Source: a virus | Taxonomy: Duplodnaviria > Heunggongvirae > Uroviricota > Caudoviricetes | Virus record (IMG/VR): IMGVR_UViG_2541047816_000001 | Length of the DNA: 38,662 nt | Direction: 5' to 3' (one strand) | Part shown: one piece after another, positions 1,144 to 29,832 of the stretch | Layout of the letters: every line of letters begins with the position of its first letter | Position numbering within the stretch: position 1 is the first letter of the stretch | The notes under the pieces: model-generated | Seen by the model: only the letters and a program-made list of their open reading frames with translations | Database searches by the model: none | Told to the model about the DNA's origin: nothing | Translations under genes and position numbers: made by a program

Positions 1144-1824
1144 TTAATGCATTTTAGTTACATCTATGTTTTTATTGATTGTCTCTTTGTTACTGGAAAG
1201 TCTTTGTTCTTTTCTTTTAATGTATAACTCCCAACGAATATTATTCATTATGATAGCGTAGATATTAAAAATAAATGTCTTTACTACTAACACTAAGTAA
1301 ATAAGGCTAGTCCCTATAACACAGTATCCAAATTTAATAATTAATTCTTTTATCGATTTTGAATATGGAAATAAATCAATTATATTGCCAATTATTCCAT
1401 CTTTTTGACAAAAGAGAATTATTATTAGATAAATGAAAGTAAACGTAATAAATGAGATGAAAACTTTCATAAATGCCATAAAGTTATATTTTAACGTGGG
1501 CATCTGTGTTTTTTTATGTTGTATTGACATCATCTGAAGAAACATCTCGGGTTTGGATAGTGTTGCAAATATTGTGAAACCAGCAATGAGAAAACCTAAG
1601 GTTGTCACTGCAAAGTTAAAACCAATCAAAGCCCAGTTTCTAATGTCAGATACTAAATGAGACATATCCTTCTCAATAAAAAAAGAGTTTGTTAATAAAA
1701 AAATAGATGCTGTGAGCAAAATGCAAATATGGAATGTACTAATAGTAATCCGTTTGCAGAGCAAGTAAACATCCCAAAGGTTTTTCTCTTTGGTTATTTC
1801 TTTAGCATCTATTTTATTTATCAT
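1144..1824 (-). CDS. Hypothetical integral membrane protein, about 4 predicted TM helices, part of AT-rich moron cassette
   Basis: 226-aa ORF; four long hydrophobic stretches; very low GC (about 30%) versus prophage backbone; start overlaps upstream gene stop by 4 nt. Confidence 0.6.
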   Translation of the reverse strand: MINKIDAKEITKEKNLWDVYLLCKRITISTFHICILLTASIFLLTNSFFIEKDMSHLVSDIRNWALIGFNFAVTTLGFLIAGFTIFATLSKPEMFLQMMSIQHKKTQMPTLKYNFMAFMKVFISFITFTFIYLIIILFCQKDGIIGNIIDLFPYSKSIKELIIKFGYCVIGTSLIYLVLVVKTFIFNIYAIIMNNIRWELYIKRKEQRLSSNKETINKNIDVTKMH

Positions 1825-2849
1825 CGACCAAACCTTTCATATATATTGCTAATAATTCTAATCGTCTTTTGTGAAAGAGAACGGGGTAGAGATATCTTAC
1901 CTTCTTCTACAAGATTTTCATACCGCTCATAACTTTCATTTGCAGCTACTACCGTATCCTTTGATAATTCATTCATCTCACTTAACAAAACAAAGTCATC
2001 ATTGCTACCTTTGATTATATCACCATTGTCATCATATCCTTTAATATTTATTCCTGAATTAGCCAATCTGGTTGCTGATGTGAGTTGTTCTAAAACAGCA
2101 CCATGATTCAAGCCTGAATCGGTGTTTGAAAAGCGAATAGATGTAGAAATACTTCCCATTTCGTCTCCGGCACTTTCAAGTGACTCCCAAAATTCGTCGT
2201 TATCAATTTCTTCTTGATTTGTAGGGAGAAGTTTTACTGAGACATTTTGGATTTTATTAAAATTATCAATAAATTGCTCTAGGCTTTGTTTGTCAGTTAA
2301 CGGCGTTATTCTTAGCTTCGGGCGTTTGATTTCGTTCCGTAAGCTTTTTTTAGTGACTCGAGGTAAGTCAGGGTTTTCTTTGCGTTCTTCTTGTGCGGTT
2401 TCGTATAAATGAGATATGTATTTTTCATATTCTATGTTTAAGAAACACTGACTTGTTGACTGAAAGTTTTGAATTGTGGGAGCACCACTAACTTCCTTGC
2501 AAAGAATTAATCTGTGAGTGTTTAATATTAGAAGAAAGAAAGAGCTCGGGGCTGTTTCAAGCTCTTGATGATCTTCAACCAAATCAGCACCATCAAATAC
2601 TTGTTCTCTGGTTAATAATGTATTCTTAATAATCCGACCTTTAATTCCGAGTACTGGGGGTGTTGCTTCTTCGTCAAGTATGACGCATTCAGTATCAATG
2701 AAAAAGAACTCTGATTTGTCAGATATTCTGCGGATGTTTGCCATCTCCAAAAAAGAGGGGAAAACAATTTCATCATAATAGTCTAGCAAAACATCATCAC
2801 CAAAACGGAGAGTATAATTTCCAAATTCGAGTTTTTTTATAAAATCCAT
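1821..2849 (-). CDS. Hypothetical soluble protein, 342 aa, first gene of AT-rich cassette downstream of the repressor
   Basis: Long ORF with acidic stretches and no motif I recognise; 15 nt downstream of the repressor stop, co-oriented, translationally coupled to the membrane protein gene. Confidence 0.6.
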   Translation of the reverse strand: MDFIKKLEFGNYTLRFGDDVLLDYYDEIVFPSFLEMANIRRISDKSEFFFIDTECVILDEEATPPVLGIKGRIIKNTLLTREQVFDGADLVEDHQELETAPSSFFLLILNTHRLILCKEVSGAPTIQNFQSTSQCFLNIEYEKYISHLYETAQEERKENPDLPRVTKKSLRNEIKRPKLRITPLTDKQSLEQFIDNFNKIQNVSVKLLPTNQEEIDNDEFWESLESAGDEMGSISTSIRFSNTDSGLNHGAVLEQLTSATRLANSGINIKGYDDNGDIIKGSNDDFVLLSEMNELSKDTVVAANESYERYENLVEEGKISLPRSLSQKTIRIISNIYERFGR

Positions 2850-2864
2850 TACTATGCCTCAAGA

Positions 2865-3743
2865 TTAAATAGTACGGTACTGTGAGAAAATTTTGGCAAC
2901 TAATTTTATATCTTCTTTTTCACAATCAAATGTTAAATCATCGTCTGTTACTCGAAGATTGCCTCCAGGTAATAGAAAAATTTGTTTTAACTTGAAATTA
3001 TTTTGGTATTGAACAATCCATCTTCCGTCTTCAACATTAGCTTTATTCATGTGTGCAATATTTATGCAATGTTCGTCTTCAATTGCGAGTAAATCATTAA
3101 AATGAGGAAGCAGGGACTTATCTATCAATAAATGACCAGCATCGAAAATTTGATTGTCAATAAGTTTTACTTTAGGAATTTCTAAAGCTTCACTTTCTTC
3201 GCTTCCAAGTTTTTGCCCGCGCCCAGTTGCTAACCATAAAAGAGAAGTTCTTGTTTCCAACGAGCATCTTATGATCCAGTCAGCTGGGAATGTGTCTCGC
3301 AAGTATCTATTCGCCATTGTGCTTTTAGACACATTCAAATGGTCGGCAAGTTCTTGTCTTGTTTTAAAGCCATACGCTTCCATTAGCCTGTTTATCGCAT
3401 TACGTCCACCTGAATCCAGATTTGGATGGTTCACAATTGGGTTCTCGTTGGTGGTGGCTTTGGGAACATATTGAACCAATGATGCTGGTTCCTCTAATTT
3501 AGCGGGAACTTCGGTATTCTTAGGAAATGGCACGCCTTTTCCGAATGAGAGCCACTCTATAGATGCTCCTGTTTCAATTGCACACTGAATTACCCAGTCA
3601 GCAGGAAATGCGTCACGCATCCAGCGCGTTCCCATAGTACTTGCAGATACATTGAACTGTTCACATAGGGCTTGCCGCGTCTTGAATCCATACGCTTCAA
3701 GCATGCGCGTTATGACTGCCTGTCCTCCGTTTTTGAAATTCAT
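2865..3743 (-). CDS. Immunity repressor, phage 186 CI-like, with tandemly duplicated N-terminal HTH domain
   Basis: Two homologous segments (..RMLEAYGFKTRQALCEQFNVSASTMGTRWMRDAFPADWVIQCAIETGASIEWL.. and ..RLMEAYGFKTRQELADHLNVSKSTMANRYLRDTFPADWIIRCSLETRTSLLWL..) resembling the 186 CI N-terminal domain as I recall it, plus a C-terminal domain; position between int and the Apl/Cox-like gene, transcribed divergently from it. Confidence 0.7.
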   Translation of the reverse strand: MNFKNGGQAVITRMLEAYGFKTRQALCEQFNVSASTMGTRWMRDAFPADWVIQCAIETGASIEWLSFGKGVPFPKNTEVPAKLEEPASLVQYVPKATTNENPIVNHPNLDSGGRNAINRLMEAYGFKTRQELADHLNVSKSTMANRYLRDTFPADWIIRCSLETRTSLLWLATGRGQKLGSEESEALEIPKVKLIDNQIFDAGHLLIDKSLLPHFNDLLAIEDEHCINIAHMNKANVEDGRWIVQYQNNFKLKQIFLLPGGNLRVTDDDLTFDCEKEDIKLVAKIFSQYRTI

Positions 3744-5923: not shown

Positions 5924-6222
5924 CAGGGGCTGTGCGTATCCATCAATTAAAAATTGCACCTAAGTATTTCAACGCTGTGGTTGCAGGTCAAAAGACGGCT
6001 GAACTTCGTAAAGACGATCGTGGCTATAAAGTTGGTGATGTTCTTTCTCTTTGCGAATGGAAGCATGGCGTATTTACGGGTAGGGAATGGGCCGCGGTTA
6101 TCTCTCATGTGCTTCCGGTTAATGACGTCATGGCAGTTTCAGAACAATGGGTGATGCTATCAATTCGCTCATTAACCCCATTAGAAGCTTTAGGATATGT
6201 TATTGCAGGAGGTGCTGTATGA
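5920..6222 (+). CDS. Small PUA/ASCH-like domain protein
   Basis: 100-aa ORF from ATG 5920 (ATGA overlap with previous stop, GGAGGTG RBS); sequence pattern ..[28 protein letters not shown].. resembles ASCH/DUF-type domains common in P2-like early regions (family assignment tentative). Confidence 0.45.
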
Positions 6223-7085
6223 GCACCATCCTGAAATGGGCGGGAAATAAAACCGCAATTATGTCCGAACTGAAAAAACACCTTCCTGCTGGCCCGCGAC
6301 TGGTTGAACCTTTCGCGGGTTCCTGTGCTGTGATGATGGAGACGGATTATCCAAGCTATCTGGTTGCGGATATTAATCCTGATTTAATCAACCTCTATAA
6401 AAAGGTTGCCGCTGATTGTGAATCGTTTATATCTCGCGCCAGAGTTTTATTTAAGGAAGCAAACAGGGAGGTGGCTTATTACAACATAAGGCAGGAGTTT
6501 AATTACTCAAATGAAATTACTGATTTCATGAAAGCGGTATATTTCCTGTATCTCAATCGTCACGGTTACCGTGGTTTATGTCGCTATAACAAGAGCGGGC
6601 ATTTCAACATTCCCTACGGTAATTATAAAAATCCGTATTTCCCAGAAAAAGAAATTCGCGCATTTGCAGAAAAAGCCCAGCGGGCAACGTTTATCTGCGC
6701 CAGCTTTGATGAAACGCTGGCGATGTTGAAGGCGGGGGATGTGGTGTATTGCGATCCGCCGTATGACGGCACGTTTTCCGGTTATCACACTGACGGCTTC
6801 ACTGAAGATGACCAGTATCACCTGGCATCCGTTCTTGAACATCGGTCATCAGAAGGACATCCGGTCATTGTTTCTAACAGTGACACATCCCTGATCCGTT
6901 CGCTGTATCGCAATTTTACTCACCACTACATCAAGGCAAAACGCAGCATCGGCGTAGCAGCTGGTGAGAGTAAATCTGCAACAGAAATCATCGCTGTTTC
7001 TGGGCGCGCTGCTGGGTGGGATTTGAGCCTTCGCGTGGCGTGGATAGTTCTGCCGTGTACGGAGTGCGTGCATGAGCCATGCTGA
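6219..7085 (+). CDS. DNA N6-adenine methyltransferase, Dam family
   Basis: N-terminal LKWAGNK, FAGSCAV SAM-binding region and catalytic DPPY motif (CDPPYDGTF); ATG 6219 overlaps previous stop. Confidence 0.8.
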
Positions 7086-9973: not shown

Positions 9974-10528
9974 TTGCTTCTTATGAATCATGTAATGTTA
10001 GATATAGAAACATTGGATGTTGAAAAAACAGCTTATATCCTTTCAGTTGGTGCGGCTTTTTTCGTGCCGGAGACTGGCGAGATTGGTCCGGGTTTCTATC
10101 AAGTTATTTCGCTTGATCATGAACAAGCAGGCAGAACCATTGCCCCCTCTACTGTAAAGTGGTGGATGAATCAAAGTACTGAAGCTAAAAACGAAAATTT
10201 TGATGGCACTAAGGACCTTTTAGAGGTTCTGAATGAATTTGTGGCATTTATTCTTCATAATCGTACTGGCCGAGTAAAAGTGTGGGGAAACGGGAAAGAG
10301 TTTGACTGCACGATCATGCATCATGCCCTGTTACAGGCGGGTCTGGATTGCCCATGGTCATTCAGAGATACTCTTGACGTTAGAACCATCTTAGCACTTG
10401 GTGAAAGCAAAGGAATTTTTTCTCATGCTGATAAAAATTTCACTGGCATTAGGCACACAGCATTCGATGATGTTTTATTTCAGATCGCACAGGTTTCTCA
10501 CATCTATATGAATTTAAATAAAAAATAA
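9974..10528 (+). CDS. DEDDh-family (DnaQ-like) 3'-5' exonuclease domain protein
   Basis: Motifs in order: DIETLD (Exo I), VWGNGKEFD (Exo II region), HTAFDD (Exo III His/Asp). True start probably ATG 9983 or 9995 rather than TTG 9974. Confidence 0.6.
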   Translation: MLLMNHVMLDIETLDVEKTAYILSVGAAFFVPETGEIGPGFYQVISLDHEQAGRTIAPSTVKWWMNQSTEAKNENFDGTKDLLEVLNEFVAFILHNRTGRVKVWGNGKEFDCTIMHHALLQAGLDCPWSFRDTLDVRTILALGESKGIFSHADKNFTGIRHTAFDDVLFQIAQVSHIYMNLNKK

Positions 10529-10543
10529 ATATAGGACTTAGCT

Positions 10544-11455
10544 ATGGATTGCTTAGATGTAACCTATTGGACTGAGCTAGATGTTTTCGCACAGTATCCT
10601 GTTGGTGCTCGCTCTAAGGCATTGGTTATTTCCCCTGATGTTGCCCCCCATGGTATCAAAGCATCGTGGCCGTATCTTTTTAAGAGAAGTATTAAAAAAT
10701 ACCCAGATCAATTTTGGTGTGAGATCGTTGCCTACAGGATTGGATTGCAGCTTGGTTTTAATGTCCCCAAAGCAGTTCCTTCGTTAAAGACTAATGATTT
10801 GGGGCATACGTTTTGCGGGGCCCTCATTGAGTGGTTTCATCATAAAGATTATGAGAAATTTGCTCCCGCTGGTGATTACTTTGTTCGAAGAGATCCAAAT
10901 TTTGATCGTGAGAAAGGAGCTAAGCATTCCATTGAAGGGCTGAGGATTATCGCGAAAGCTCTTAAAGTTGACTATGTTGAGTGGTTGGAGAATATGGCTC
11001 TCTTTGACGCAGTAATAGGTAATACAGATAGACATCAAGAAAACTGGGGGTTTATCTTCTCCCCTTTAACCAGCGAGTGTCAGCTTGCACCATTTTTCGA
11101 TAATGGTACGAGCTTATGCTACGAACGCTTTCCGGAACATGTTGCTGATTGGACCGATCATAGACTCAGGGAGCATGTTAGCCGGGGAAAGCATCATTTG
11201 CGTAAAACTCTGGGCAAAGATGAGTATCAGAGATTAGGTCATTTAGAGTTAATCAAAGAACTTTGTGATAAAAAAGAAGAATTAAAACAGCGGGTAGCTG
11301 AAAGACTGGCTCGTTTGAACCATGACTTTTGGGACTCAACTTTTGCGGAGTTGACGGAAATAAACTGCCCTGTTCCGCTGACTAGAGAACGTGCTGCATG
11401 GATTGTTCGTGTAACAAACATGCGTATTGAACTGATTAAAGGTGTTACTTCATGA
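10544..11455 (+). CDS. HipA-family Ser/Thr kinase core lacking the HipA N-subdomain (HipT-like)
   Basis: Three HipA kinase motifs in correct order and spacing: G21-ARSK (cf. HipA GAQEK), IGNTDRHQEN at 158-167 (catalytic loop, cf. HipA GATDGHAKN), FFDNGTS at 184-190 (Mg-binding, cf. HipA FYDI); 303 aa. Confidence 0.6.
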   Translation: MDCLDVTYWTELDVFAQYPVGARSKALVISPDVAPHGIKASWPYLFKRSIKKYPDQFWCEIVAYRIGLQLGFNVPKAVPSLKTNDLGHTFCGALIEWFHHKDYEKFAPAGDYFVRRDPNFDREKGAKHSIEGLRIIAKALKVDYVEWLENMALFDAVIGNTDRHQENWGFIFSPLTSECQLAPFFDNGTSLCYERFPEHVADWTDHRLREHVSRGKHHLRKTLGKDEYQRLGHLELIKELCDKKEELKQRVAERLARLNHDFWDSTFAELTEINCPVPLTRERAAWIVRVTNMRIELIKGVTS

Positions 11456-12156
11456 CTATCTTAATAGAAAAAATTCCCATGCCAAGTAGGCTCTTACTGA
11501 CATGGCAACCGACCGACGGCGGCTCTCGCTATGTCGTTGGTGAACTTCTTCAAGATGAGTCTGAAGGCTACGAGTTTAATTATCTTACGGATAGCAAAGA
11601 TTTTGCTAAAGCTGGGGATAAAGGCTTTCACGGTTTTCCTGCTTTTGACATAAAAGTTACGACTCATCGCAAAGACGTTATGCAAACCTTTTCAAGAAGG
11701 TTACCCTCCAGGAAAAGAGAAGATTTTGCCGATTACTTGCTGACGTTTCGTCTTCCTGCTGATTTTAGAGAGAATGACTTCGTTTTGCTCGCTTGTACTG
11801 GCGGAAAAGTGGCTAGTGATGGTTTTTATTTTGTCCCAGACTTGTCTTCTATTCGGCCACCTTTTGATTATGTCATGGAGGTCGCCGGAACGAGACACAT
11901 GATTAAGGAAGGGCGTCTAGCTCTTGACGAGATATCAATTGGTGATGAAGTCATATTGCGCAATGAAGATACCAATACTGTTGATCCGCTGGCCATATTA
12001 GTAACGAAAAACGACAATCATCTAGGGTATGTCAACAAGGCATTGTGCGCCGCATTACGAGATCTTAGTAAAAACCATGATATCAGTGGAGTGGTCGTAC
12101 GTAAAAATGGCTCTTCGGATAGGCCTTTGATTTATGCAAAAGTATCTGTTAGATGA
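11452..12156 (+). CDS. HipS-like N-domain fused to C-terminal HIRAN domain
   Basis: N-terminus LLTW...VGEL...F.Y pattern parallels the HipA N-subdomain (LVTW..VGEL..FKY); C-terminus GDEVILRNEDTNTVDPLAILVTKNDNHLGYVNKALCAALRDL fits the HIRAN signature; start overlaps kinase stop by 4 nt (ATGA). Confidence 0.5.
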   Translation: MTILIEKIPMPSRLLLTWQPTDGGSRYVVGELLQDESEGYEFNYLTDSKDFAKAGDKGFHGFPAFDIKVTTHRKDVMQTFSRRLPSRKREDFADYLLTFRLPADFRENDFVLLACTGGKVASDGFYFVPDLSSIRPPFDYVMEVAGTRHMIKEGRLALDEISIGDEVILRNEDTNTVDPLAILVTKNDNHLGYVNKALCAALRDLSKNHDISGVVVRKNGSSDRPLIYAKVSVR

Positions 12157-21611: not shown

Positions 21612-22005
21612 AGCGGTGCCTTATGTCCGAAATAACCCGGACAAACTGCATCTGTTTGTGGATAACGGTTCGCTGGTTGCCACGGGGGCCAGCTCCATGT
21701 CATGGGAGTACCGCTACACCCTGAACGTGGTGATTGAGGATTTCAGCGGCGACCAGAATCTGCTGATGGCCCCGGTTTTGCTGTGGCTGCGTGATAACCA
21801 GCCCGATGCCATCAATAACCCGGCGTTACGGGAAAAGCTATTCACCTTTGAGGTGGATATTCTGCGCAACGATGTCTGTGATATCAGCCTCAACCTGCAA
21901 CTGACGGAGCGTGTGCTGGTCAGCACTGACGGCAGTGTGTCGAGCGTTGAAGCTATAGCGGAACCTGATGAACCTGAAGAAATGTGGACGGTGAAACGTG
22001 GCTGA
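21574..22005 (+). CDS. R: Tail completion protein (P2 gpR-like)
   Basis: GTG 21574 with AGGAG RBS 7 nt upstream; about 143 aa; P2 order. Confidence 0.65.
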   Translation: MNKPQSLRYALNKAVPYVRNNPDKLHLFVDNGSLVATGASSMSWEYRYTLNVVIEDFSGDQNLLMAPVLLWLRDNQPDAINNPALREKLFTFEVDILRNDVCDISLNLQLTERVLVSTDGSVSSVEAIAEPDEPEEMWTVKRG

Positions 22006-22444
22006 ACTGCAGAAAGTGGACGACTGGCTGAGTGCCTTGCTGGCGAATCTGGAGCCAGCCGCAAGAAGCCGCATGATGCGCCAGCTGGCGCAGGAACTAC
22101 GCCGGACACAGCAGCAAAATATCAGAATGCAGCGCAATCCAGATGGCAGCAGTTATGAACCGCGACGGGTAACAGCACGCAGTAAAAAAGGCCGTATCAA
22201 ACGTCAGATGTTTGCAAAGCTGCGCACCACAAAATACCTGAAAACTTCCGCCAGCGCCGACTCTGCCAGCGTGCAGTTTGAAGGCAAGGTACAGCGCATT
22301 GCCCGTGTTCATCACTACGGCTTACGTGATCGCGTCAGCCGCAAAGGACCGGAGGTCCGTTACGCAGAGCGTCGCCTTCTGGGTGTAAATGATGATGTTG
22401 AGGCAATGACCCGCGACATGATTCTGCAATGGCTGGCGGGGTGA
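21998..22444 (+). CDS. S: Tail completion protein (P2 gpS-like)
   Basis: 148 aa; GTG start overlapping R stop; P2 order. Confidence 0.65.
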   Translation: MAELQKVDDWLSALLANLEPAARSRMMRQLAQELRRTQQQNIRMQRNPDGSSYEPRRVTARSKKGRIKRQMFAKLRTTKYLKTSASADSASVQFEGKVQRIARVHHYGLRDRVSRKGPEVRYAERRLLGVNDDVEAMTRDMILQWLAG

Positions 22445-22448
22445 TTTT

Positions 22449-22466
22449 TGTATCAGCACTGATACA
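22449..22466 (+). promoter_or_regulatory. Ogr-type late activator box TGT-N12-ACA upstream of V
   Basis: TGTatcagcactgatACA about 45 nt upstream of the V start. Confidence 0.45.
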
Positions 22467-22512
22467 AGTTGCAGCACTGCCGCCTTTCTTCCCCTGATGG
22501 CAACCTTTCCCT

Positions 22513-23091
22513 ATGAACGCACAATTAACCGAAATCATGCGCCTTATCACCAACCTGATCCGCACTGGGGTAGTCACCGAAGTGGACAGGACAAACTGGC
22601 TTTGCCGGGTGAAAACGGGCGACCTTGAAACCAACTGGATCAGCTGGCTGACGCTGCGTGCCGGGAATGCCCGGACATGGTGGCGACCATCGGAAGGTGA
22701 GCAGGTGGTGCTGCTGAGTATGGGCGGTAATCTGGAAACAGCTTTTGCGCTGCCCGCCATCTATTCGAATCAGTTCGCACCACCGTCGACGTCGGCGGAC
22801 GCCTGCGTGACAGAACATCCTGACGGTGGCTGGTTTGAATACGAACCTGCCACCGGGCGCTGGTATGTCAGGGGCATCAAATCCATGGTCATTGAGGCTG
22901 CCGATAACATCACCCTGAAAACCAGTGAGTTTGTGCTGGAGGCTGAGTGCACGCGTATTAACAGCGAAGTGGTGATCAATGGTGGCGTTACTCAGGGCGG
23001 CGGAGCGATGAGTTCTAACGGGATCGTGGTTGATGCGCATCAGCATACTGGCGTCCTGAAAGGCGGCGATACAACCGGAGGCCCGGTATGA
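22513..23091 (+). CDS. V: Baseplate spike/assembly protein (P2 gpV-like)
   Basis: 192 aa; first gene of V-W-J-I-H cluster. Confidence 0.75.
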   Translation: MNAQLTEIMRLITNLIRTGVVTEVDRTNWLCRVKTGDLETNWISWLTLRAGNARTWWRPSEGEQVVLLSMGGNLETAFALPAIYSNQFAPPSTSADACVTEHPDGGWFEYEPATGRWYVRGIKSMVIEAADNITLKTSEFVLEAECTRINSEVVINGGVTQGGGAMSSNGIVVDAHQHTGVLKGGDTTGGPV

Positions 23092-23447
23092 CGCTTTATA
23101 GCGGGATGAACAATACCAGCGGTAAAGCCATTACTGATATTGACCATCTGCGCCAGTCGGTGCGGGACATTTTGCTGACGCCGCAGGGTAGCCGCATTGC
23201 CCGTCGGGAATATGGTTCCCTGCTGTCGGCACTGATAGACCAGCCACAAAATCCGGCATTACGCCTGCAGGTCATGTCGGCAGTGTATGTGGCGCTGAGT
23301 CGCTGGGAGCCACGGCTGACGCTGGATTCCATCACCATTAACAGCAATTTTGACGGTTCAATGGTGGTGGAGCTGACCGGGCGGCGTAATAACGGTGTGC
23401 CTGTTTCCCTTTCCGTATCAACAGGAGCAGAGAATGGCAGTGATTGA
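23088..23447 (+). CDS. W: Baseplate wedge protein (P2 gpW-like, gp25-like)
   Basis: 119 aa; P2 order. Confidence 0.7.
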   Translation: MTLYSGMNNTSGKAITDIDHLRQSVRDILLTPQGSRIARREYGSLLSALIDQPQNPALRLQVMSAVYVALSRWEPRLTLDSITINSNFDGSMVVELTGRRNNGVPVSLSVSTGAENGSD

Positions 23448-24342
23448 CCTTTCGCAGTTGCCTGCGCCGCAGATTGTGGATGTGCCGGACTTTGAGACGC
23501 TGATTGCCGAACGCAAGGCCGAATTTGTTGCGCTTCATCCGAAAGATGAGCAGGAAGCAGTGATCCGCACGCTGGAACTGGAATCTGAACCCGTCACCAA
23601 ATTGCTTCAGGAGAACGCTTACCGTGAGTTGCTTCTGCGCCAGCGCATTAACGAAGCCGCGCATGCTGTGATGGTGGCTTACGCGATGGGCGGCGATCTT
23701 GACCAGCTCGCTGCCAACTACAACGTGAAACGCCTGACGGTGACGCCTGCTGATAATGACGCTGTGCCACCCGTTGCGGCTGTGATGGAAAGCGATGAAG
23801 CGTTACGCCTGCGTGTGCCTGCAGCCTTTGAAGGGCTTTCTGTTGCGGGGCCAACTGCAGCTTATGAATTTCATGCCCGAAGCGCCGACGGTCGGGTGGC
23901 GGATGCCAGTGCAACCAGCCCGGCGCCTGCAGAGGTGGTGCTGACTGTCCTTAGCCGCGAAGGCGATGGAACTGCAGAAAAAGACCTGCTGGACGTGGTG
24001 GAAAAAGCTCTGAACAGTGAGAACGTCCGCCCGGTGGCTGACCGTCTGACGGTTCGCAGCGCAGAAATCATCCCGTATCGCGTGGAAGCCACCATTTTTC
24101 TCTATCCGGGACCGGAAGCAGAGCCGGTAATGGCAGCGGCAAAAGCCAGCCTGCAGAAGTACATCGCCAGTCAGACGCGTCTTGGTCGGGATATTCGCCG
24201 TAGCGCCATCTTTGCCGCCCTGCATGTTGAGGGTGTGCAGCGTGTGGAGCTGGCTTCTCCTCTGGCGGATGTGGTCCTGAACAAAACACAGGCGGCATCA
24301 TGTACGCAGTGGAGCGTAACCAACGGAGGAACGGATGAATAG
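23434..24342 (+). CDS. J: Baseplate protein (P2 gpJ-like)
   Basis: ATG 23434 preceded by CAGGAGCAGAGA; about 302 aa as P2 J. Confidence 0.75.
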   Translation: MAVIDLSQLPAPQIVDVPDFETLIAERKAEFVALHPKDEQEAVIRTLELESEPVTKLLQENAYRELLLRQRINEAAHAVMVAYAMGGDLDQLAANYNVKRLTVTPADNDAVPPVAAVMESDEALRLRVPAAFEGLSVAGPTAAYEFHARSADGRVADASATSPAPAEVVLTVLSREGDGTAEKDLLDVVEKALNSENVRPVADRLTVRSAEIIPYRVEATIFLYPGPEAEPVMAAAKASLQKYIASQTRLGRDIRRSAIFAALHVEGVQRVELASPLADVVLNKTQAASCTQWSVTNGGTDE

Positions 24343-24940
24343 TCTGCTGCCACCGGGTTCAACACCACTGGAGCGCCGACTGGCGCAAACCTGCAGCGGG
24401 ATTTCTGATCTGCAGGTGCCGCTTCGTGACTTGTGGAATCCGGCAACCTGTCCGGTCAGTTTCCTGCCTTATCTCGCCTGGGCGTTCTCTGTGGATCGCT
24501 GGGACGAGGGCTGGACAGAAAGCGTCAAGCGCCAGGTGGTGAAGGATGCTTTTTATATTCATCAGCATAAAGGGACCACCAGTGCCGTGCGGCGGGTGGT
24601 GGAGCCGTTCGGCTTTCTGATCCGCATTATTGAGTGGTGGCAAACCGGAGAGGCACCGGGCACGTTTCGCCTGGATATCGGCGTGCAGGACCAGGGCATC
24701 ACTGAAGATACCTATCTGGAACTTGAGCGACTGATAAGCGATGCCAAACCATGTAGCCGCCACATGATCGGCATGTCCATCAATCTGCAGACCAGCGGCC
24801 CGCATTGGGTGGGAGCCGCCAGCTATCTTGGCGAAGAAATCACGATCTATCCGTATATCAACGAAACGATTATTTCCGGTGGCACCGCGCATGAAGGCGG
24901 GGCGGTCCATGTTATTGACACAATGAGAGTGAATCCATGA
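24335..24940 (+). CDS. I: Baseplate protein (P2 gpI-like)
   Basis: 201 aa; GGAGGAACGG RBS; P2 order. Confidence 0.7.
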   Translation: MNSLLPPGSTPLERRLAQTCSGISDLQVPLRDLWNPATCPVSFLPYLAWAFSVDRWDEGWTESVKRQVVKDAFYIHQHKGTTSAVRRVVEPFGFLIRIIEWWQTGEAPGTFRLDIGVQDQGITEDTYLELERLISDAKPCSRHMIGMSINLQTSGPHWVGAASYLGEEITIYPYINETIISGGTAHEGGAVHVIDTMRVNP

Positions 24941-26361
24941 GCACAAAATTTTATACCCTGCTGACGGATATTGGCGCGGCGAAACTTGCCAGCGCCGCCG
25001 CGCTCGGTGTGCCGCTAAAAATTACCCATATGGCGGTGGGCGATGGCGGCGGAGCATTGCCGACGCCGGACGCAAAGCAGACGGCACTGGTAAATGAGAA
25101 ACGCCGGGCTGCGCTGAATATGCTCTATATCGACCCGCAGAACAGCAGCCAGATTATTGCTGAACAGGTGATCCCTGAAAACGAGGGCGGTTGGTGGATA
25201 CGTGAAGTGGGCCTGTTTGATGAGTCAGGGGCATTGATTGCCGTGGGGAACTGCCCGGAAAGCTATAAACCGCAACTGGCTGAAGGCAGCGGGCGTACCC
25301 AGACCGTGCGCATGGTGCTGATTACCAGCAGCACGGACAATATCACCCTGAAAATCGACCCTGCCGTAGTGCTGGCAACCCGCAAGTATGTGGATGACAA
25401 GGTACTGGAGCTGAAGGTGTACGTGGATGATCAGATGGCAAAACATCTTGCCGCACCGGACCCGCATTCACAGTATGCACCCAAAGAAAGTCCGACGTTT
25501 ACCGGGACACCAAAAGCGCCAACGCCAGCGGCAGGGAATAACACCACGCAGGTTGCGACCACCGCGTTTGTTCAGGCGGCACTGACGGCCCTGATTAATG
25601 GTGCGCCAGCCACGCTGGACACGCTGAAAGAATTAGCCGCAGCCATTAACAATGATCCGAAATTCAGTACCACCATTAACAATGCGCTGGCACTGAAAGC
25701 GCCGCTGTCAAGTCCGGAACTCACCGGAACGCCAACAGCCCCCACTGCCGCACAGTCGGTTAACAATACACAGATTGCCACCACGGCTTTTGTGAAATCG
25801 GCGATTGCGGCAATGGTGGGTTCTGCACCTGCGGCACTGGATACACTGAACGAACTGGCGGCGGCGCTGGGGAATGACCCGAACTTTGCCACGACAATGC
25901 TTAATGCGCTGGCAGGTAAACAACCGCTGGACAATACGCTGACTAATTTGAGTGGAAAGGATGTCGCTGGTCTTCTCACATACCTTGGTTTAGGAGAAGC
26001 GGCGAAAACGATTGGCGTTCCGTTAGTTTGTCCGTCCGCTGCAATGGGAGCTTTCGTTACCGATACGGGATGGGGTATGGTGTCAGTGGGGTACAATGTC
26101 CAGTTTGTCACTGCCTCTGATAACCCGGTCCGCTCGATCGTGTTACCGGTGCTTATATTACCCCCCAATCAGCCGGTTGTTTTACGTATTTGGAAGTATG
26201 AGCCCGTGAAGTCTGTCGGATGGAACCCACTCACGCGGGTATTACCCATAAATTTTGATCATACAAACAATATAGCGTGGTGTGCGGGAGCCGGGGATAC
26301 CTCACAAAGTGCCAGGGACAGTTTTATCCCAGGAGGACGGTATACATACAGTGATGGGTGA
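24937..26361 (+). CDS. H: Tail fibre protein (P2 gpH-like) with invertible C-terminal segment
   Basis: 474 aa; internal repeats (TQVATTAFV / TQIATTAFV; LDTLKELAAAINNDPKF / LDTLNELAAALGNDPNF); C-terminal part after a hix-like site is paralogous to the inverted ORF at 27429-27923. Confidence 0.8.
   Translation: MSTKFYTLLTDIGAAKLASAAALGVPLKITHMAVGDGGGALPTPDAKQTALVNEKRRAALNMLYIDPQNSSQIIAEQVIPENEGGWWIREVGLFDESGALIAVGNCPESYKPQLAEGSGRTQTVRMVLITSSTDNITLKIDPAVVLATRKYVDDKVLELKVYVDDQMAKHLAAPDPHSQYAPKESPTFTGTPKAPTPAAGNNTTQVATTAFVQAALTALINGAPATLDTLKELAAAINNDPKFSTTINNALALKAPLSSPELTGTPTAPTAAQSVNNTQIATTAFVKSAIAAMVGSAPAALDTLNELAAALGNDPNFATTMLNALAGKQPLDNTLTNLSGKDVAGLLTYLGLGEAAKTIGVPLVCPSAAMGAFVTDTGWGMVSVGYNVQFVTASDNPVRSIVLPVLILPPNQPVVLRIWKYEPVKSVGWNPLTRVLPINFDHTNNIAWCAGAGDTSQSARDSFIPGGRYTYSDG
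25973..25998. repeat. 26-bp hix/gix-like recombination site (left inverted repeat of invertible segment), inside H
   Basis: TTCTCACATACCTTGGTTTAGGAGAA; pseudo-palindromic, related to the right-hand site; encodes the ..GLGE.. junction. Confidence 0.55.
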
Positions 26362-27428
26362 TCAGTGCCGATAAAAGTGCGTTTTCCTATGGTGCGCTTA
26401 TAATTGCGTATTATTAACTCGGCTAGTGTCCAACGGATTGAAGAAATTTGTGCGACAGTATTGCCGGAGAACTGATGACGGAATCTCGAGTAGGACTATA
26501 CGGAGATGGCATCGACGTGAAGCCTGCTTGGAATGAAATTGGACCGCCAACAGAGGCGGGAGAAATTCCCTCAGCCTATCATAAAGCGGTACCGTATGTT
26601 AATCAGGTCTACTCATATATATACATTAATCAATGGCCTGGTATACCCGCCTGTGCTCGCCGTATTGATGCGGGACAAGAGATACCTAGAATATGGGCAG
26701 TTTTTCCGGGTGCGCTATAGCTGGTCGATACAGCCGATCCCCCTGAGATCGTTTGGCCTACGCAAACTGGCGTACCGGTCAGAGTGCATTAGACCCGTTC
26801 CTCGAATGACTTTCCGTTCCCGCTTTCATCTATAACGCCACACGATTAAGTGGAGTGTTTTAAAGCGGTGACAGCTTCCGAGCCGCAGGATATTGCAGCT
26901 GTATAAGACGGATAAGCGCCGTGCCAGCCTCTGTTTGCTACTGCAGTGGCGTTCATCCCTCTGCTACAGCGGCGATTTGAGGCCCGTCGGAAGCCGTCGC
27001 CCACATCTAACCCCCGAATTTACCCTATGCCGTTTAATATGGAAGCGTTGCCGACACGTGATAGGAGGCCCGGGCATAATGTCATGTAGCATGTGCGCCA
27101 GGTTGCGTTGGGCATACAGTATCTTTGCGATCGTCAGTTTCAACGCGCTACCCTTTATCCAGATAAACTGCCCCTTATTTCTAAATCGTTTGGTCCGGGT
27201 CATTCAGACTGGCAAACGCGGCCATACTAGCTCATGTCTTAATGTATTCGTATTCGTTGCCCGGATATTCAAACTTTTGTTCATCCTGTTAGGCTGCACC
27301 CATTTGTCCCGGAAGAGTAGCCGGCGCAATTTCATTACAAGCAGGTATCCTTTCTAAGCCATCACCATATATTCCTTTGCGATATTTCTTCATAAGTTTT
27401 GCGTCACTACTGTTCCCCTATTCGCTCC

Positions 27429-27923
27429 CTAACGCTTGCCATTCGCAGGGCTCATGACACGCGATGTGAAAGGCACCAGGAGACCGCGTATGTTTATCTG
27501 AACTATACCCATGTTACTGCATGTAGCCCGTCTTCCTGAAATTACTCTGAACCGGTCTCTTCGTGAGGCATCACTGGTTCCCACACGCCACTCTGAATTG
27601 TTGGCATGATCAATAATTATGGACGATTCCCCTGTGAGTGGATTACACCCGTCTGCCATCACGGCCCCGGCCTTCCCGCTGACTGAGAAAACACGCCGTG
27701 CGTGGGGTGATGCCAGGACGGGACCACTTATCGCGCGCATAGTGTTACCTGAAACAGTGCATTTCTGAACAATATATTTCAATGATAGCCTGCAGCACCA
27801 GGTATCAAAAGCGAATGCTCCCATATCCGCTGTCTGACTAACTAATGGACCGCCAACAGTTGGAGCTCCTTCTCCCAAACCAACGTTTAAGAAAATGCAG
27901 CGATTACGACTAACTGGCATCAT
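27429..27923 (-). CDS. Alternative tail-fibre C-terminal segment in inverted orientation (promoterless until inversion)
   Basis: Minus-strand ORF paralogous to the H C-terminus (..GAPTVGGPLVSQTADMGAFAFDT.. vs ..AKTIGVPLVCPSAAMGAFVTDT..; ..IIIDHANNSEWRVGTSDASRRDRF.. vs ..INFDHTNNIAWCAGAGDTSQSARDSF..). Confidence 0.6.
   Translation of the reverse strand: MMPVSRNRCIFLNVGLGEGAPTVGGPLVSQTADMGAFAFDTWCCRLSLKYIVQKCTVSGNTMRAISGPVLASPHARRVFSVSGKAGAVMADGCNPLTGESSIIIDHANNSEWRVGTSDASRRDRFRVISGRRATCSNMGIVQINIRGLLVPFTSRVMSPANGKR
27870..27895. repeat. 26-bp hix/gix-like recombination site (right inverted repeat of invertible segment)
   Basis: TTCTCCCAAACCAACGTTTAAGAAAA; resembles hixL as I recall it; right half matches the reverse complement of the 25973-25998 site. 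Confidence 0.55.
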
Positions 27924-27950
27924 CCCCGGTTTTTATTCAGGGGATTGATC

Positions 27951-28517
27951 ATGCTTATTGGCTATGTACGCGTGTCAACAAATGACCAGAACACAGATTT
28001 GCAACGTAATGCACTGAACTGCGCGGGATGTGAGCGGATTTTTGAGGACAAAATCAGTGGCACTAAGCCCGACAGACCGGGGCTTAAAAAACTGCTCAGG
28101 ACACTATCGGTTGGAGACACTCTGGTTGTCTGGAAGCTGGACAGGTTGGGGCGCAGTATGCGGCATCTTGTTACGCTGATAGAAGAGTTGCGTCAGCGTG
28201 GCGTGAATTTCCGAAGCCTGACTGACAGTATTGATACCAGCACCCCAATGGGCCGTTTCTTTTTTCATGTCATGGGGGCCCTGGCTGAAATGGAACGCGA
28301 ACTGATAGTTGAACGTACCAGGGCGGGGCTGGCTGCAGCTCGTGATAAAGGCAGAGTAGGTGGACGCCGTCCTAAGTTGACCACCGAACAGTGGGCACAG
28401 ATTGGACGCTTACTCGAGGCCGGAGAATCAAGACAGCGTATTGCACTGATTTTTGATGTGGGTGTTTCCACAATTTATAGAAAATTTCCGGCAAATAAGA
28501 GTAATGAATCCCCCTGA
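27951..28517 (+). CDS. Serine DNA invertase (Hin/Gin/Pin/Cin family)
   Basis: N-terminal MLIGYVRVSTNDQ with catalytic Ser, resolvase domain, C-terminal HTH; adjacent to the invertible tail-fibre segment. Confidence 0.85.
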   Translation: MLIGYVRVSTNDQNTDLQRNALNCAGCERIFEDKISGTKPDRPGLKKLLRTLSVGDTLVVWKLDRLGRSMRHLVTLIEELRQRGVNFRSLTDSIDTSTPMGRFFFHVMGALAEMERELIVERTRAGLAAARDKGRVGGRRPKLTTEQWAQIGRLLEAGESRQRIALIFDVGVSTIYRKFPANKSNESP

Positions 28518-28565
28518 ATCAGCATTATTTTGATTATCCCTGCAAGCAGACAAATACCGTCATTT

Positions 28566-28583
28566 TGTGTGAATAACGGTACA
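28566..28583 (+). promoter_or_regulatory. Ogr-type late activator box TGT-N12-ACA upstream of FI
   Basis: TGTgtgaataacggtACA about 80 nt upstream of the FI start. Confidence 0.45.
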
Positions 28584-28659
28584 ACTGCGCTTAGCTGTTT
28601 GTCAGGCACAATCACTTCAACATAGGGCGAAGCCTAATCCAATCAGGAGGTTCGCCACT

Positions 28660-29832
28660 ATGGCTCAGGATTACCACCACGGGGTGCGCGTTGTTGAAGT
28701 CAACGAAGGTACCCGATCCATTACCACGGTGAGCACCGCCATCGTGGGCATGGTCTGCACGGGCGATGATGCCGATGCAAAAATGTTTCCTCTTAATAAA
28801 CCCGTGCTGATCACTGATGTGCTGACTGCCAGCGGTAAAGCGGGTGAGTCCGGCACGCTGGCCCGTTCGCTGGATGCCATCGCTGACCAGGCAAAACCCG
28901 TGACCGTTGTTGTGCGTGTGCCGCAGGGTGAAACGGAAGAAGAAACCACGACCAATATCATCGGCGCAGTGACTGCTGAAGGTAAAAAAACAGGCATGAA
29001 AGCCCTGTTATCTGCCCAGACACAGCTCGGCGTTAAACCGCGCATTCTCGGCGTGCCAGGTCACGATAACAAAGCCGTTGCGACTGAGTTGCTGAGTGTG
29101 GCGCAAAGCCTGCGTGGGTTTGCCTACCTGTCAGCGTATGGCTGCAAGACGGTACAGGAGGCGATCACTTACCGTGAAAACTTCAGCCAGCGCGAAGGAA
29201 TGCTGATCTGGCCCGACTTTACTGGCTGGGACACGGTGCTGAATGCCGAAGCAACGGCATATGCCACCGCCCGTGCGCTTGGTCTGCGTGCCAAAATTGA
29301 TGAGCAGACTGGGTGGCACAAAAGCCTGTCCAACGTGGGCGTGAACGGTGTCACCGGAATTTCTGCAGATGTGTTCTGGGATCTGCAGGACCCGGCAACC
29401 GATGCAGGTCTGCTGAACCAGAACGACGTCACCACGCTTGTGCGTAAAGACGGTTTACGCTTTTGGGGTTCCCGCTGCCTGAGTGATGACCCGCTCTTTG
29501 CTTTCGAAAACTACACCCGCACGGCGCAGGTGCTGACGGACACAATGGCAGAAGCGCACATGTGGGCAGTGGACAAACCGCTGAACCCGTCGCTGGCGCG
29601 CGACATTATCGAGGGCATCCGCGCCAAAATGCGCAGCCTGGTCAGTCAGGGGTATCTCATTGGTGGTGATTGCTGGCTGGACGAGTCGGTGAACGACAAA
29701 GACACTCTGAAAGCCGGAAAACTCACCATCGACTACGACTACACGCCAGTGCCGCCACTTGAAAATCTGATGTTGCGTCAGCGCATCACCGATCAGTACC
29801 TGGTGAATTTCGCCAGCCAGGTCAGCGCGTAA
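28660..29832 (+). CDS. FI: Tail sheath protein (P2 gpFI-like)
   Basis: 390 aa; position before tube and tape-measure genes. Confidence 0.85.

What the first reader, a model, noticed from the sequence alone, without database searches (positions are those of the whole stretch)
25973..27895. Invertible tail-fibre host-range segment bounded by 26-bp hix/gix-like sites, with adjacent Hin/Gin-family invertase
Seen: inverted, related 26-bp sites at 25973-25998 (inside H) and 27870-27895 (inside the minus-strand paralogue), both encoding a GLGE junction; the H C-terminus and the inverted ORF are paralogous but divergent; a serine invertase gene starts at 27951. Established knowledge: Mu G, P1 C and e14 P segments switch tail-fibre C-termini by invertase-mediated inversion. 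Inference: this prophage alternates between two receptor specificities.
Basis: partly seen in the sequence, partly recalled or inferred. Interest (0 to 1): 0.45.

Follow-up and report, generated by a model that had tools for sequence, protein, structure and literature searches.

The report
Known tail-fibre inversion switch, garbled assembly
This is an ordinary, already-described Pin/Gin-type DNA inversion switch for the tail fibre of a P2-like E. coli prophage. The 1.9 kb between its two crossover sites is not real DNA in this record: it is a base-by-base mix of the segment's two orientations produced during genome assembly.

Summary
The two 26-bp inverted sites (25973-25998, 27870-27895) and the serine invertase (27951-28517) are real. 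The right site matches e14 pix at 25/26 positions. The invertase is 85% identical to PinE and aligns full length to Mu Gin. The interior is an artefact. Every one of the 1923 bases from 25973 to 27895 equals either the base of the near-identical prophage of E. coli GmF052/SF-173 or the base of that segment's reverse complement in the same register. The split is 701:706, with none matching neither, no indels and no autocorrelation. Outside the segment the window differs from GmF052 at 4 positions in about 36.7 kb. The reported paralogy of the H C-terminus and the inverted ORF (41-43% aa) is what such mixing produces (simulated 38.6 +/- 3.9%). The true cassettes are unrelated (8%), and the two tail-fibre assembly genes are destroyed. 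The window comes from the public draft of E. coli HVH 194 (GCA_000458935.1), where the chimeric ORFs are deposited as singleton proteins. Biology: a known kind of switch, and the mixing hints that both orientations were present in the sequenced culture. Interest is low, mainly a data-quality warning.

The parts
24937..25985 (+). Constant part of tail fibre gene H (P2 gpH-like), up to the crossover point.
   Evidence: ORF. The H proteins of the clean copies (GmF052 and SF-173, whose constant parts differ from the window at 0 and 1 nt) match PF12571 Phage_tail_fib at E 4e-65. This part of the window has no mismatch to GmF052.
25973..25998 (.). Left crossover site (pix/gix-like, 26 bp), core TT at 25985-25986. 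The inner half encodes GLGE.
   Evidence: It matches e14 pixL at 22/26 positions and Mu gix at 18/26.
25986..27882 (.). Invertible segment. In this record it is a per-base roughly 50:50 composite of its two orientations, so it is not a physical sequence.
   Evidence: 1923/1923 bases equal S or revcomp(S), split 701 S, 706 R, 0 neither; 62.3% self-complementary in register; no autocorrelation; all 706 mismatches to GmF052 lie between 25992 and 27876.
25999..26361 (+). Apparent H C-terminus: a chimeric reading frame that stayed open by chance.
   Evidence: No Pfam hit. P = 0.23 of staying open this long under random mixing. The 474-aa product is a singleton among about 15 billion proteins (EQT98004.1 / WP_021541827.1).
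27429..27869 (-). Apparent inverted paralogue: a chimeric reading frame, mirror image of the one above.
   Evidence: No Pfam hit. P = 0.15 of staying open. Singleton protein EQT98006.1.
25999..26517 (+). Where variable C-terminus A of H lies in the clean copy (orientation as in GmF052/SF-173; H is then 526 aa). Not readable here.
   Evidence: Weak Collar-domain hit.
26517..27110 (+). Where tail fibre assembly gene tfaA (197 aa) lies in the clean copy. Destroyed in the window.
   Evidence: PF02413 Caudo_TAP E 3e-27. No corresponding ORF in the window.
27082..27522 (-). Where tail fibre assembly gene tfaB (146 aa) lies in the clean copy. Destroyed in the window.
   Evidence: PF02413 E 5e-34.
27525..27882 (-). 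Where the promoterless variable C-terminus B of H (gp53-like) lies in the clean copy. After inversion H is 468 aa.
   Evidence: PF21882 Gp53-like_C E 1e-9. It is found fused to the H constant part in 38 E. coli genomes.
27870..27895 (.). Right crossover site, core AA at 27882-27883, 55 nt upstream of the invertase ATG.
   Evidence: It matches e14 pixR at 25/26. Spacing to the invertase ATG is 55 nt, as in e14 (55) and close to Mu (54).
27951..28517 (+). Pin/Gin-family serine DNA invertase, 188 aa, intact, with the Ser9 motif YVRVSTNDQ.
   Evidence: PF00239 E 3e-52 and PF02796 E 1e-15. Mu Gin structures 3UJ3 and 4M6F at E 8e-93, residues 1-184. 85% identical to e14 PinE. The exact sequence occurs on 215 contigs.

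Best explanation
The locus is the standard tail-fibre inversion switch of a P2-like E. coli prophage integrated next to grxA-ybjM-ybjL. A Pin/Gin-family serine invertase (27951-28517) recombines two inverted 26-bp sites. One site lies inside gene H and the other 55 nt upstream of the invertase gene. Recombination flips about 1.9 kb. This exchanges the C-terminal, receptor-binding part of H together with its cognate assembly chaperone: cassette A + tfaA versus cassette B + tfaB.

Shown here: the sites, the invertase, the gene content in near-identical prophages, and the existence of both fusions in other genomes.

Inferred: inversion actually happens in this strain, and it changes host range.

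The sequence given for the segment in this record (E. coli HVH 194, GCA_000458935.1) is not a molecule that exists. At each position the assembler or consensus step wrote, apparently at random, the base of one orientation or of the other. The simplest cause, which is inferred and not verified, is this: the sequenced culture held both orientations, the assembly carried them as two equal-length alternative paths between the same flanks, and these were flattened column by column.
For: Composite: 1923/1923 positions equal S or revcomp(S) of the GmF052/SF-173 segment. At the 1407 informative positions the split is 701 S, 706 R and 0 neither, with no indel. Outside the segment there are only 4 mismatches to GmF052, against 706 inside, all between 25992 and 27876. 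All 10 informative positions of the outer half-sites are pure S, so the mixing stops at the crossover points. The choice behaves as an independent fair coin: runs z = -1.7, longest run 12, no autocorrelation at lags 1-100, no mirror correlation.

Consequences: 62.3% in-register self-complementarity, against 26.8% for the clean segment. ORF-to-ORF identity is 41%, against 38.6 +/- 3.9% simulated and 8% for the real cassettes. The tfa genes are lost and the chimeric ORFs have no Pfam hit.

Real public record: the chimeric H ORF is found in NCBI GCA_000458935.1 scaffold KE700789.1, and that locus is identical to window 21937-29361. The proteins are singletons, named for E. coli HVH 194.

Switch: sites; invertase; clean gene content; the alternative fusion present in 38 genomes. 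Inversion of P2-like prophage tail-fibre loci was shown experimentally in EPEC, and of the e14 locus in K-12 (PMC4272514).
Against: I could not see the reads or the assembly method, so the step that produced the mixing is a guess. Ordinary read-majority consensus would give long runs of one orientation rather than per-base alternation, and most aligners would not place inverted reads in register. That points to a column-wise flattening of two equal-length paths or random tie-breaking, but this is not verified. A mild deficit of A among the chosen bases (328 of 741, z about -3.1) is unexplained, although the overall 6-class chi-square has p about 0.07. A search for other chimeric versions of this protein found none, so the artefact is not shown to be systematic. 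Activity of the invertase in this strain is only indirectly indicated.
Confidence: 0.9

Rival explanations
1. The sequence is physical. On this reading it is a genuine quasi-palindromic invertible segment carrying two diverged paralogous H C-termini and no chaperone genes.
For: Two open frames of 128 and 154 codons continue from the two sites and are 43% identical.
Against: Every base is explained by S or revcomp(S) of a known segment, with no exception and no indel. Chance would explain about 45% (my arithmetic from the 26.8% in-register S/R identity). The frames stay open by chance with P = 0.23 and 0.15. Their similarity equals the simulated value. They have no Pfam domains, and the proteins are singletons among 15 billion. 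No natural relative of the interior exceeds about 64% identity, while the flanks have 100% matches.
Confidence: 0.01
2. The composite reflects two fixed copies rather than active inversion. These would be either two copies of the prophage in one genome with opposite segment orientation, collapsed by the assembler, or a mixed or contaminated culture of two strains.
For: Any source of both orientations in the reads would give the same composite. The data here cannot tell sources apart.
Against: The invertase gene and both sites are intact. The flanks show no sign of a second, diverged copy: only 4 differences from GmF052 over about 36.7 kb and no mixed positions outside the segment. Double lysogeny by an identical phage is uncommon (background knowledge). 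Inversion in P2-like prophages of E. coli cultures is documented (PMC4272514).
Confidence: 0.05
3. The interior was altered in silico when this test window was prepared, so the composite is not a property of any public record.
For: The perfectly unbiased, uncorrelated per-base choice looks computational. The exact 40-mer was absent from three contig collections.
Against: The exact chimeric 474-aa and 163-aa proteins are deposited under GenBank/RefSeq accessions for E. coli HVH 194. The NCBI scaffold is identical to the window over 7425 nt spanning the segment.
Confidence: 0.01

Closest known systems
e14 P segment with PinE (E. coli K-12 cryptic prophage)
   Same: The invertase is 85% identical. 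The right site matches at 25/26 and the left at 22/26. Layout is the same: fibre gene / tfa -> <- tfa / fibre C-terminus / site / 55 nt / invertase. The segment is of similar size: site starts are 1827 nt apart in e14 and 1897 nt apart here.
   Different: e14 is a defective lambdoid element, whereas this is a complete P2-like prophage in which the switch sits in gene H between I and FI. The variable cassettes also differ.
Invertible tail-fibre loci of P2-like prophages in E. coli (e.g. EPEC E2348/69; Goldberg et al. 2014, PMC4272514)
   Same: Same phage family, same position and same mechanism. Coexistence of both orientations in cultures was shown by sequencing and PCR. The same prophage with a clean segment is annotated in E. 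coli GmF052 and SF-173.
   Different: Nothing of substance. One EPEC locus has three sites and four variants, while this one has only two sites.
Phage Mu G segment with Gin (also P1 C segment with Cin)
   Same: Full-length homology of the invertase to Gin (E 8e-93). The crossover sites are 26 bp and the site-to-invertase spacing is 54-55 nt. Both switch S/U versus S'/U'-type fibre C-terminus plus chaperone.
   Different: The Mu segment is about 3 kb. The gix core is different and only 18/26 positions match. The phage family is different.
Salmonella Hin/hix flagellar switch
   Same: Same recombinase subfamily and 26-bp site type; Fis/enhancer-dependent invertasome (PMC3798978).
   Different: Hin flips a promoter, not a coding C-terminus.

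Membership tests
Gin/Hin/Cin/Pin (Din) DNA inversion systems | Small serine recombinase: N-terminal resolvase-type catalytic domain with the active-site serine, and a C-terminal HTH. | tested here: met
   PF00239 E 3e-52 and PF02796 E 1e-15. Aligns to residues 1-184 of Gin in 3UJ3/4M6F, with the YVRVSTNDQ motif present. 85% identical to PinE.
Gin/Hin/Cin/Pin (Din) DNA inversion systems | Two 26-bp imperfectly dyad-symmetric crossover sites in inverted orientation with an identical asymmetric 2-bp core. | tested here: met
   Only two matches in the window, 0 expected. Core is TT at one site and AA (complement) at the other. Matches bona fide e14 pix at 25/26 and 22/26, and Mu gix at 18/26.
Gin/Hin/Cin/Pin (Din) DNA inversion systems | Invertase gene immediately outside one site. 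| tested here: met
   55 nt from the site to the ATG, as in e14 (55) and Mu (54).
Gin/Hin/Cin/Pin (Din) DNA inversion systems | Fis-bound recombinational enhancer in the 5' part of the invertase gene. | not tested
   The 5' coding region is homologous to pinE and gin, but conservation there is confounded with coding constraint. No Fis-site analysis was done.
Gin/Hin/Cin/Pin (Din) DNA inversion systems | The segment really occurs in both orientations. | tested here: inconclusive
   Indirect only. The record is an equal mix of both orientations, bounded at the crossover points, and 38 other genomes carry the alternative fusion. No reads or PCR were available.
Phage tail-fibre host-range cassettes (Mu S/U - S'/U' type) | Segment carries two alternative fibre C-termini, each followed by a cognate Caudo_TAP chaperone gene, in opposite orientation. 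| tested here: met
   Met in the clean copies of the same prophage. In the window itself these genes are unreadable.
P2-like prophage (Peduoviridae) | P2 gene order: int, CI, replication endonuclease, portal/terminase/scaffold/capsid, lysis, V-W-J-I-H, FI-FII-E-T-U-D, ogr. | tested here: met
   Annotation of records that are 100.0% identical over window 1-24900.

The most novel reading that the evidence does not exclude
The per-base composite may be a readable fossil of population heterogeneity. If it arises whenever an assembler flattens two equal-length alternative paths, then scanning legacy draft assemblies could help. The signature would be kilobase segments that are about 60-65% self-reverse-complementary in perfect register and bounded by short inverted repeats. 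Such a scan would list DNA inversion switches that were actively flipping in the sequenced cultures. It would also flag the bogus proteins they left in RefSeq and UniRef.
Probability: 0.25. Interest if true: 0.3.

Novelty: already known. Interest (0 to 1): 0.15.

Why it matters
Biologically it adds nothing new. Pin/Gin-type tail-fibre switches in P2-like E. coli prophages are described, and this very prophage is cleanly annotated in other genomes.

Its practical value is as a warning. A public assembly contains 1.9 kb of sequence that never existed. It has produced singleton proteins in GenBank, RefSeq and UniRef (EQT98004.1 / WP_021541827.1 and EQT98006.1). Read naively, it suggests two paralogous receptor-binding domains and a switch without chaperones.

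The artefact also hints, indirectly, that both orientations were present in the sequenced culture.

Tried and rejected
1. Additional crossover sites (a multi-inversion, shufflon-like system). None were found in the window. None were found in the clean segment even allowing 6 mismatches.

2. Genuine divergence of the interior. This is rejected by the uniform 63-64% gap-free identity to both orientations of every relative and by the 100% S-or-R test.

3. Read-majority or coverage-driven consensus as the cause. This is disfavoured because the choice shows no autocorrelation and no anticorrelation between mirror positions.

4. Alphabetical tie-breaking. This is rejected because both bases of every pair type are chosen.

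5. Locating the source by an exact 40-mer in genome, viral and metagenome contig collections. There were no hits. The source was found instead through the exact chimeric protein.

6. Looking for other chimeric realisations of this fibre in the protein database. None were found among 120 hits. The index-based search is not sensitive for this purpose.

7. Establishing the assembler. The literature searches were uninformative for this strain. The ALLPATHS papers only show that such assemblers keep parallel edges that must be linearised. That HVH 194 was assembled this way is my recollection of Broad practice and is not verified.

8. FDAARGOS_1283 as a natural copy in the opposite orientation. It is in the same orientation, with a rearranged second cassette.

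Full report
**1. What the sequence shows**

Gene H of a P2-like prophage (24937-26361 as an ORF) contains TTCTCACATACCTTGGTTTAGGAGAA at 25973-25998. A second site, TTCTCCCAAACCAACGTTTAAGAAAA, lies at 27870-27895. These are the only two matches in the 38.6-kb window to a hix/gix-type pattern at up to 3 mismatches. None were found in 100 shuffles. The sites are inverted relative to each other and share the core dinucleotide (TT; AA on the plus strand at the right site). Both inner halves encode GLGE in the frames that run into the segment. An ORF starting at the ATG at 27951 encodes a 188-aa serine recombinase.

**2. The invertase and the sites belong to the Pin/Gin group**

- The protein has the resolvase catalytic domain (E 3e-52) and the resolvase HTH (E 1e-15).
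- It aligns over residues 1-184 to the Mu Gin crystal-structure sequences (E 8e-93), with the active-site serine motif intact.
- It is 85% identical to PinE of e14.
- I located the bona fide sites in Mu, at the annotated G-segment boundaries, and in e14 of K-12.
- The right site matches e14 at 25/26 positions and the left at 22/26. Identity to gix is 18/26.
- The distance from the right site to the invertase ATG is 55 nt, against 55 in e14 and 54 in Mu.

**3. The interior is anomalous**

- The flanks are 96-100% identical to many E. coli prophages, but identity drops abruptly at the two sites. Over 25987-26986 it is about 57-72% with no gaps.
- Every relative matches the interior at only 63-64%, in one essentially gap-free piece and in either orientation.
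- Relatives carry two tail-fibre assembly genes here. The window has no such ORFs.
- The segment 25973-27895 is 62.3% identical to its own reverse complement in perfect register along its whole length.

**4. The explanation**

Let S be the segment of E. coli SF-173, which is identical in GmF052 and has the same 1923-nt length. Let R be its reverse complement.

- All 1923 window bases equal S[i] or R[i].
- At the 1407 positions where S and R differ, the window follows S 701 times, R 706 times and neither 0 times, interleaved base by base.
- S and R agree with each other at only 26.8% of positions, which is chance level.
- Outside the segment, the window differs from GmF052 at 4 positions in about 36.7 kb. 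Inside, it differs at 706 positions, all between 25992 and 27876.
- All 10 informative positions of the outer half-sites are pure S, so the mixing ends at the crossover points.
- The choice behaves as an independent fair coin: runs z = -1.7, longest run 12, no autocorrelation at lags 1-100, no correlation between mirror positions, and local S fraction 0.42-0.56.

No biological process yields this. It is a column-wise composite of the two orientations.

**5.

- Under simulated random mixing, the plus-strand frame stays open for at least 128 codons with P = 0.23. The minus-strand frame stays open for at least 154 codons with P = 0.15.
- The two frames are expected to be 38.6 +/- 3.9% identical in register. 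The observed value is 41% in register, or 43% by BLASTP.
- The real cassettes are unrelated: 8% in register, with no significant BLASTP hit.
- Cassette A hits the Collar domain weakly and cassette B is gp53-like. The chimeric frames hit nothing.
- The 'paralogy' is therefore an artefact, and the two real tfa genes (Caudo_TAP, E 3e-27 and 5e-34) are scrambled.

**6. Provenance**

The chimeric 474-aa H ORF is on record in NCBI assembly GCA_000458935.1, scaffold KE700789.1 (3.23 Mb). That locus is identical to window 21937-29361. The protein is EQT98004.1 / WP_021541827.1 of E. coli HVH 194 (4-2356805). Both it and the 163-aa minus-strand ORF (EQT98006.1) are singleton clusters among about 15 billion proteins, whereas the invertase's exact sequence is on 215 contigs. 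So the composite is a property of a public draft assembly, not of this exercise.

I could not establish which software step produced it. The statistics argue against read-majority consensus. They favour flattening of two equal-length alternative paths, or random tie-breaking. ALLPATHS-type assemblers keep such parallel edges (PMC2784318). That this strain was assembled that way is only my recollection.

**7. The real element and how it works**

In the clean copies, the order is: H constant part / site / C-terminus A / tfaA -> <- tfaB / C-terminus B / site / invertase / tail sheath.

- In the deposited orientation H is 526 aa. After inversion it is 468 aa.
- The 468-aa fusion exists in nature: 38 E. 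coli genomes have the H constant part joined to cassette B at 96-98% identity, for example UTME-8.

By homology with Pin, Gin and Hin, invertase dimers bound at the two sites synapse, cut at the 2-bp core, rotate 180 degrees and religate. That swaps the receptor-binding end of the fibre together with its chaperone.

Inversion in P2-like prophages was demonstrated experimentally in EPEC cultures, and inversion of the e14 locus in K-12 cultures (PMC4272514). Activity in HVH 194 is inferred only from the composite. The composite implies that both orientations reached the assembler. A collapsed second prophage copy or a mixed culture cannot be excluded without the reads.

**8. Verdict**

This is a real, ordinary, already-known inversion switch. 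The interior sequence and the two 'paralogous' ORFs are not real features. Interest is low and lies in data quality, plus a possible way to detect active inversions in legacy assemblies.

Noticed in passing
window 10544-11455 (+) and 11452-12156 (+), with 9995-10528 (+): Cargo genes in the variable region of the prophage: a HipA-domain protein and a HIRAN-domain protein, preceded by a 3'-5' exonuclease gene. The first two match the PADLOC candidate defence pair PDC-M03A and PDC-M03B (both E 4e-36). The exonuclease has no PADLOC hit.
   Followed up: partly
window 1144-2849 (-): Two hypothetical proteins (342 and 226 aa) lie between the CI repressor and the integrase of the prophage. They have no PADLOC hit. 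Their function is unknown.
   Followed up: partly
window about 6219-7075 (+): The prophage DNA adenine methylase gene is annotated as frameshifted (pseudogene) in the near-identical GmF052 and SF-173 records.
   Followed up: no
window 25973-27895: Among the coin-flip choices, A is picked less often than its alternative (328 of 741, z about -3.1), while T, C and G are not depleted. The overall test over six pair classes gives p about 0.07. This may be a trace of how the consensus step worked, or chance.
   Followed up: partly
L006 (E. coli FDAARGOS_1283, NZ_CP070162.1) 2283-3146: In a prophage 99.9% identical over window 1-24900, the second cassette of the invertible segment is rearranged. Both tfa' and the H' C-terminus are annotated as partial pseudogenes, and the region is 25 nt longer.
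   Followed up: no
window 3803, 5783, 30510, 35917: These are the only four differences from E. coli GmF052 outside the invertible segment. The HVH 194, GmF052 and SF-173 prophages are therefore practically the same phage in three human isolates.
   Followed up: no
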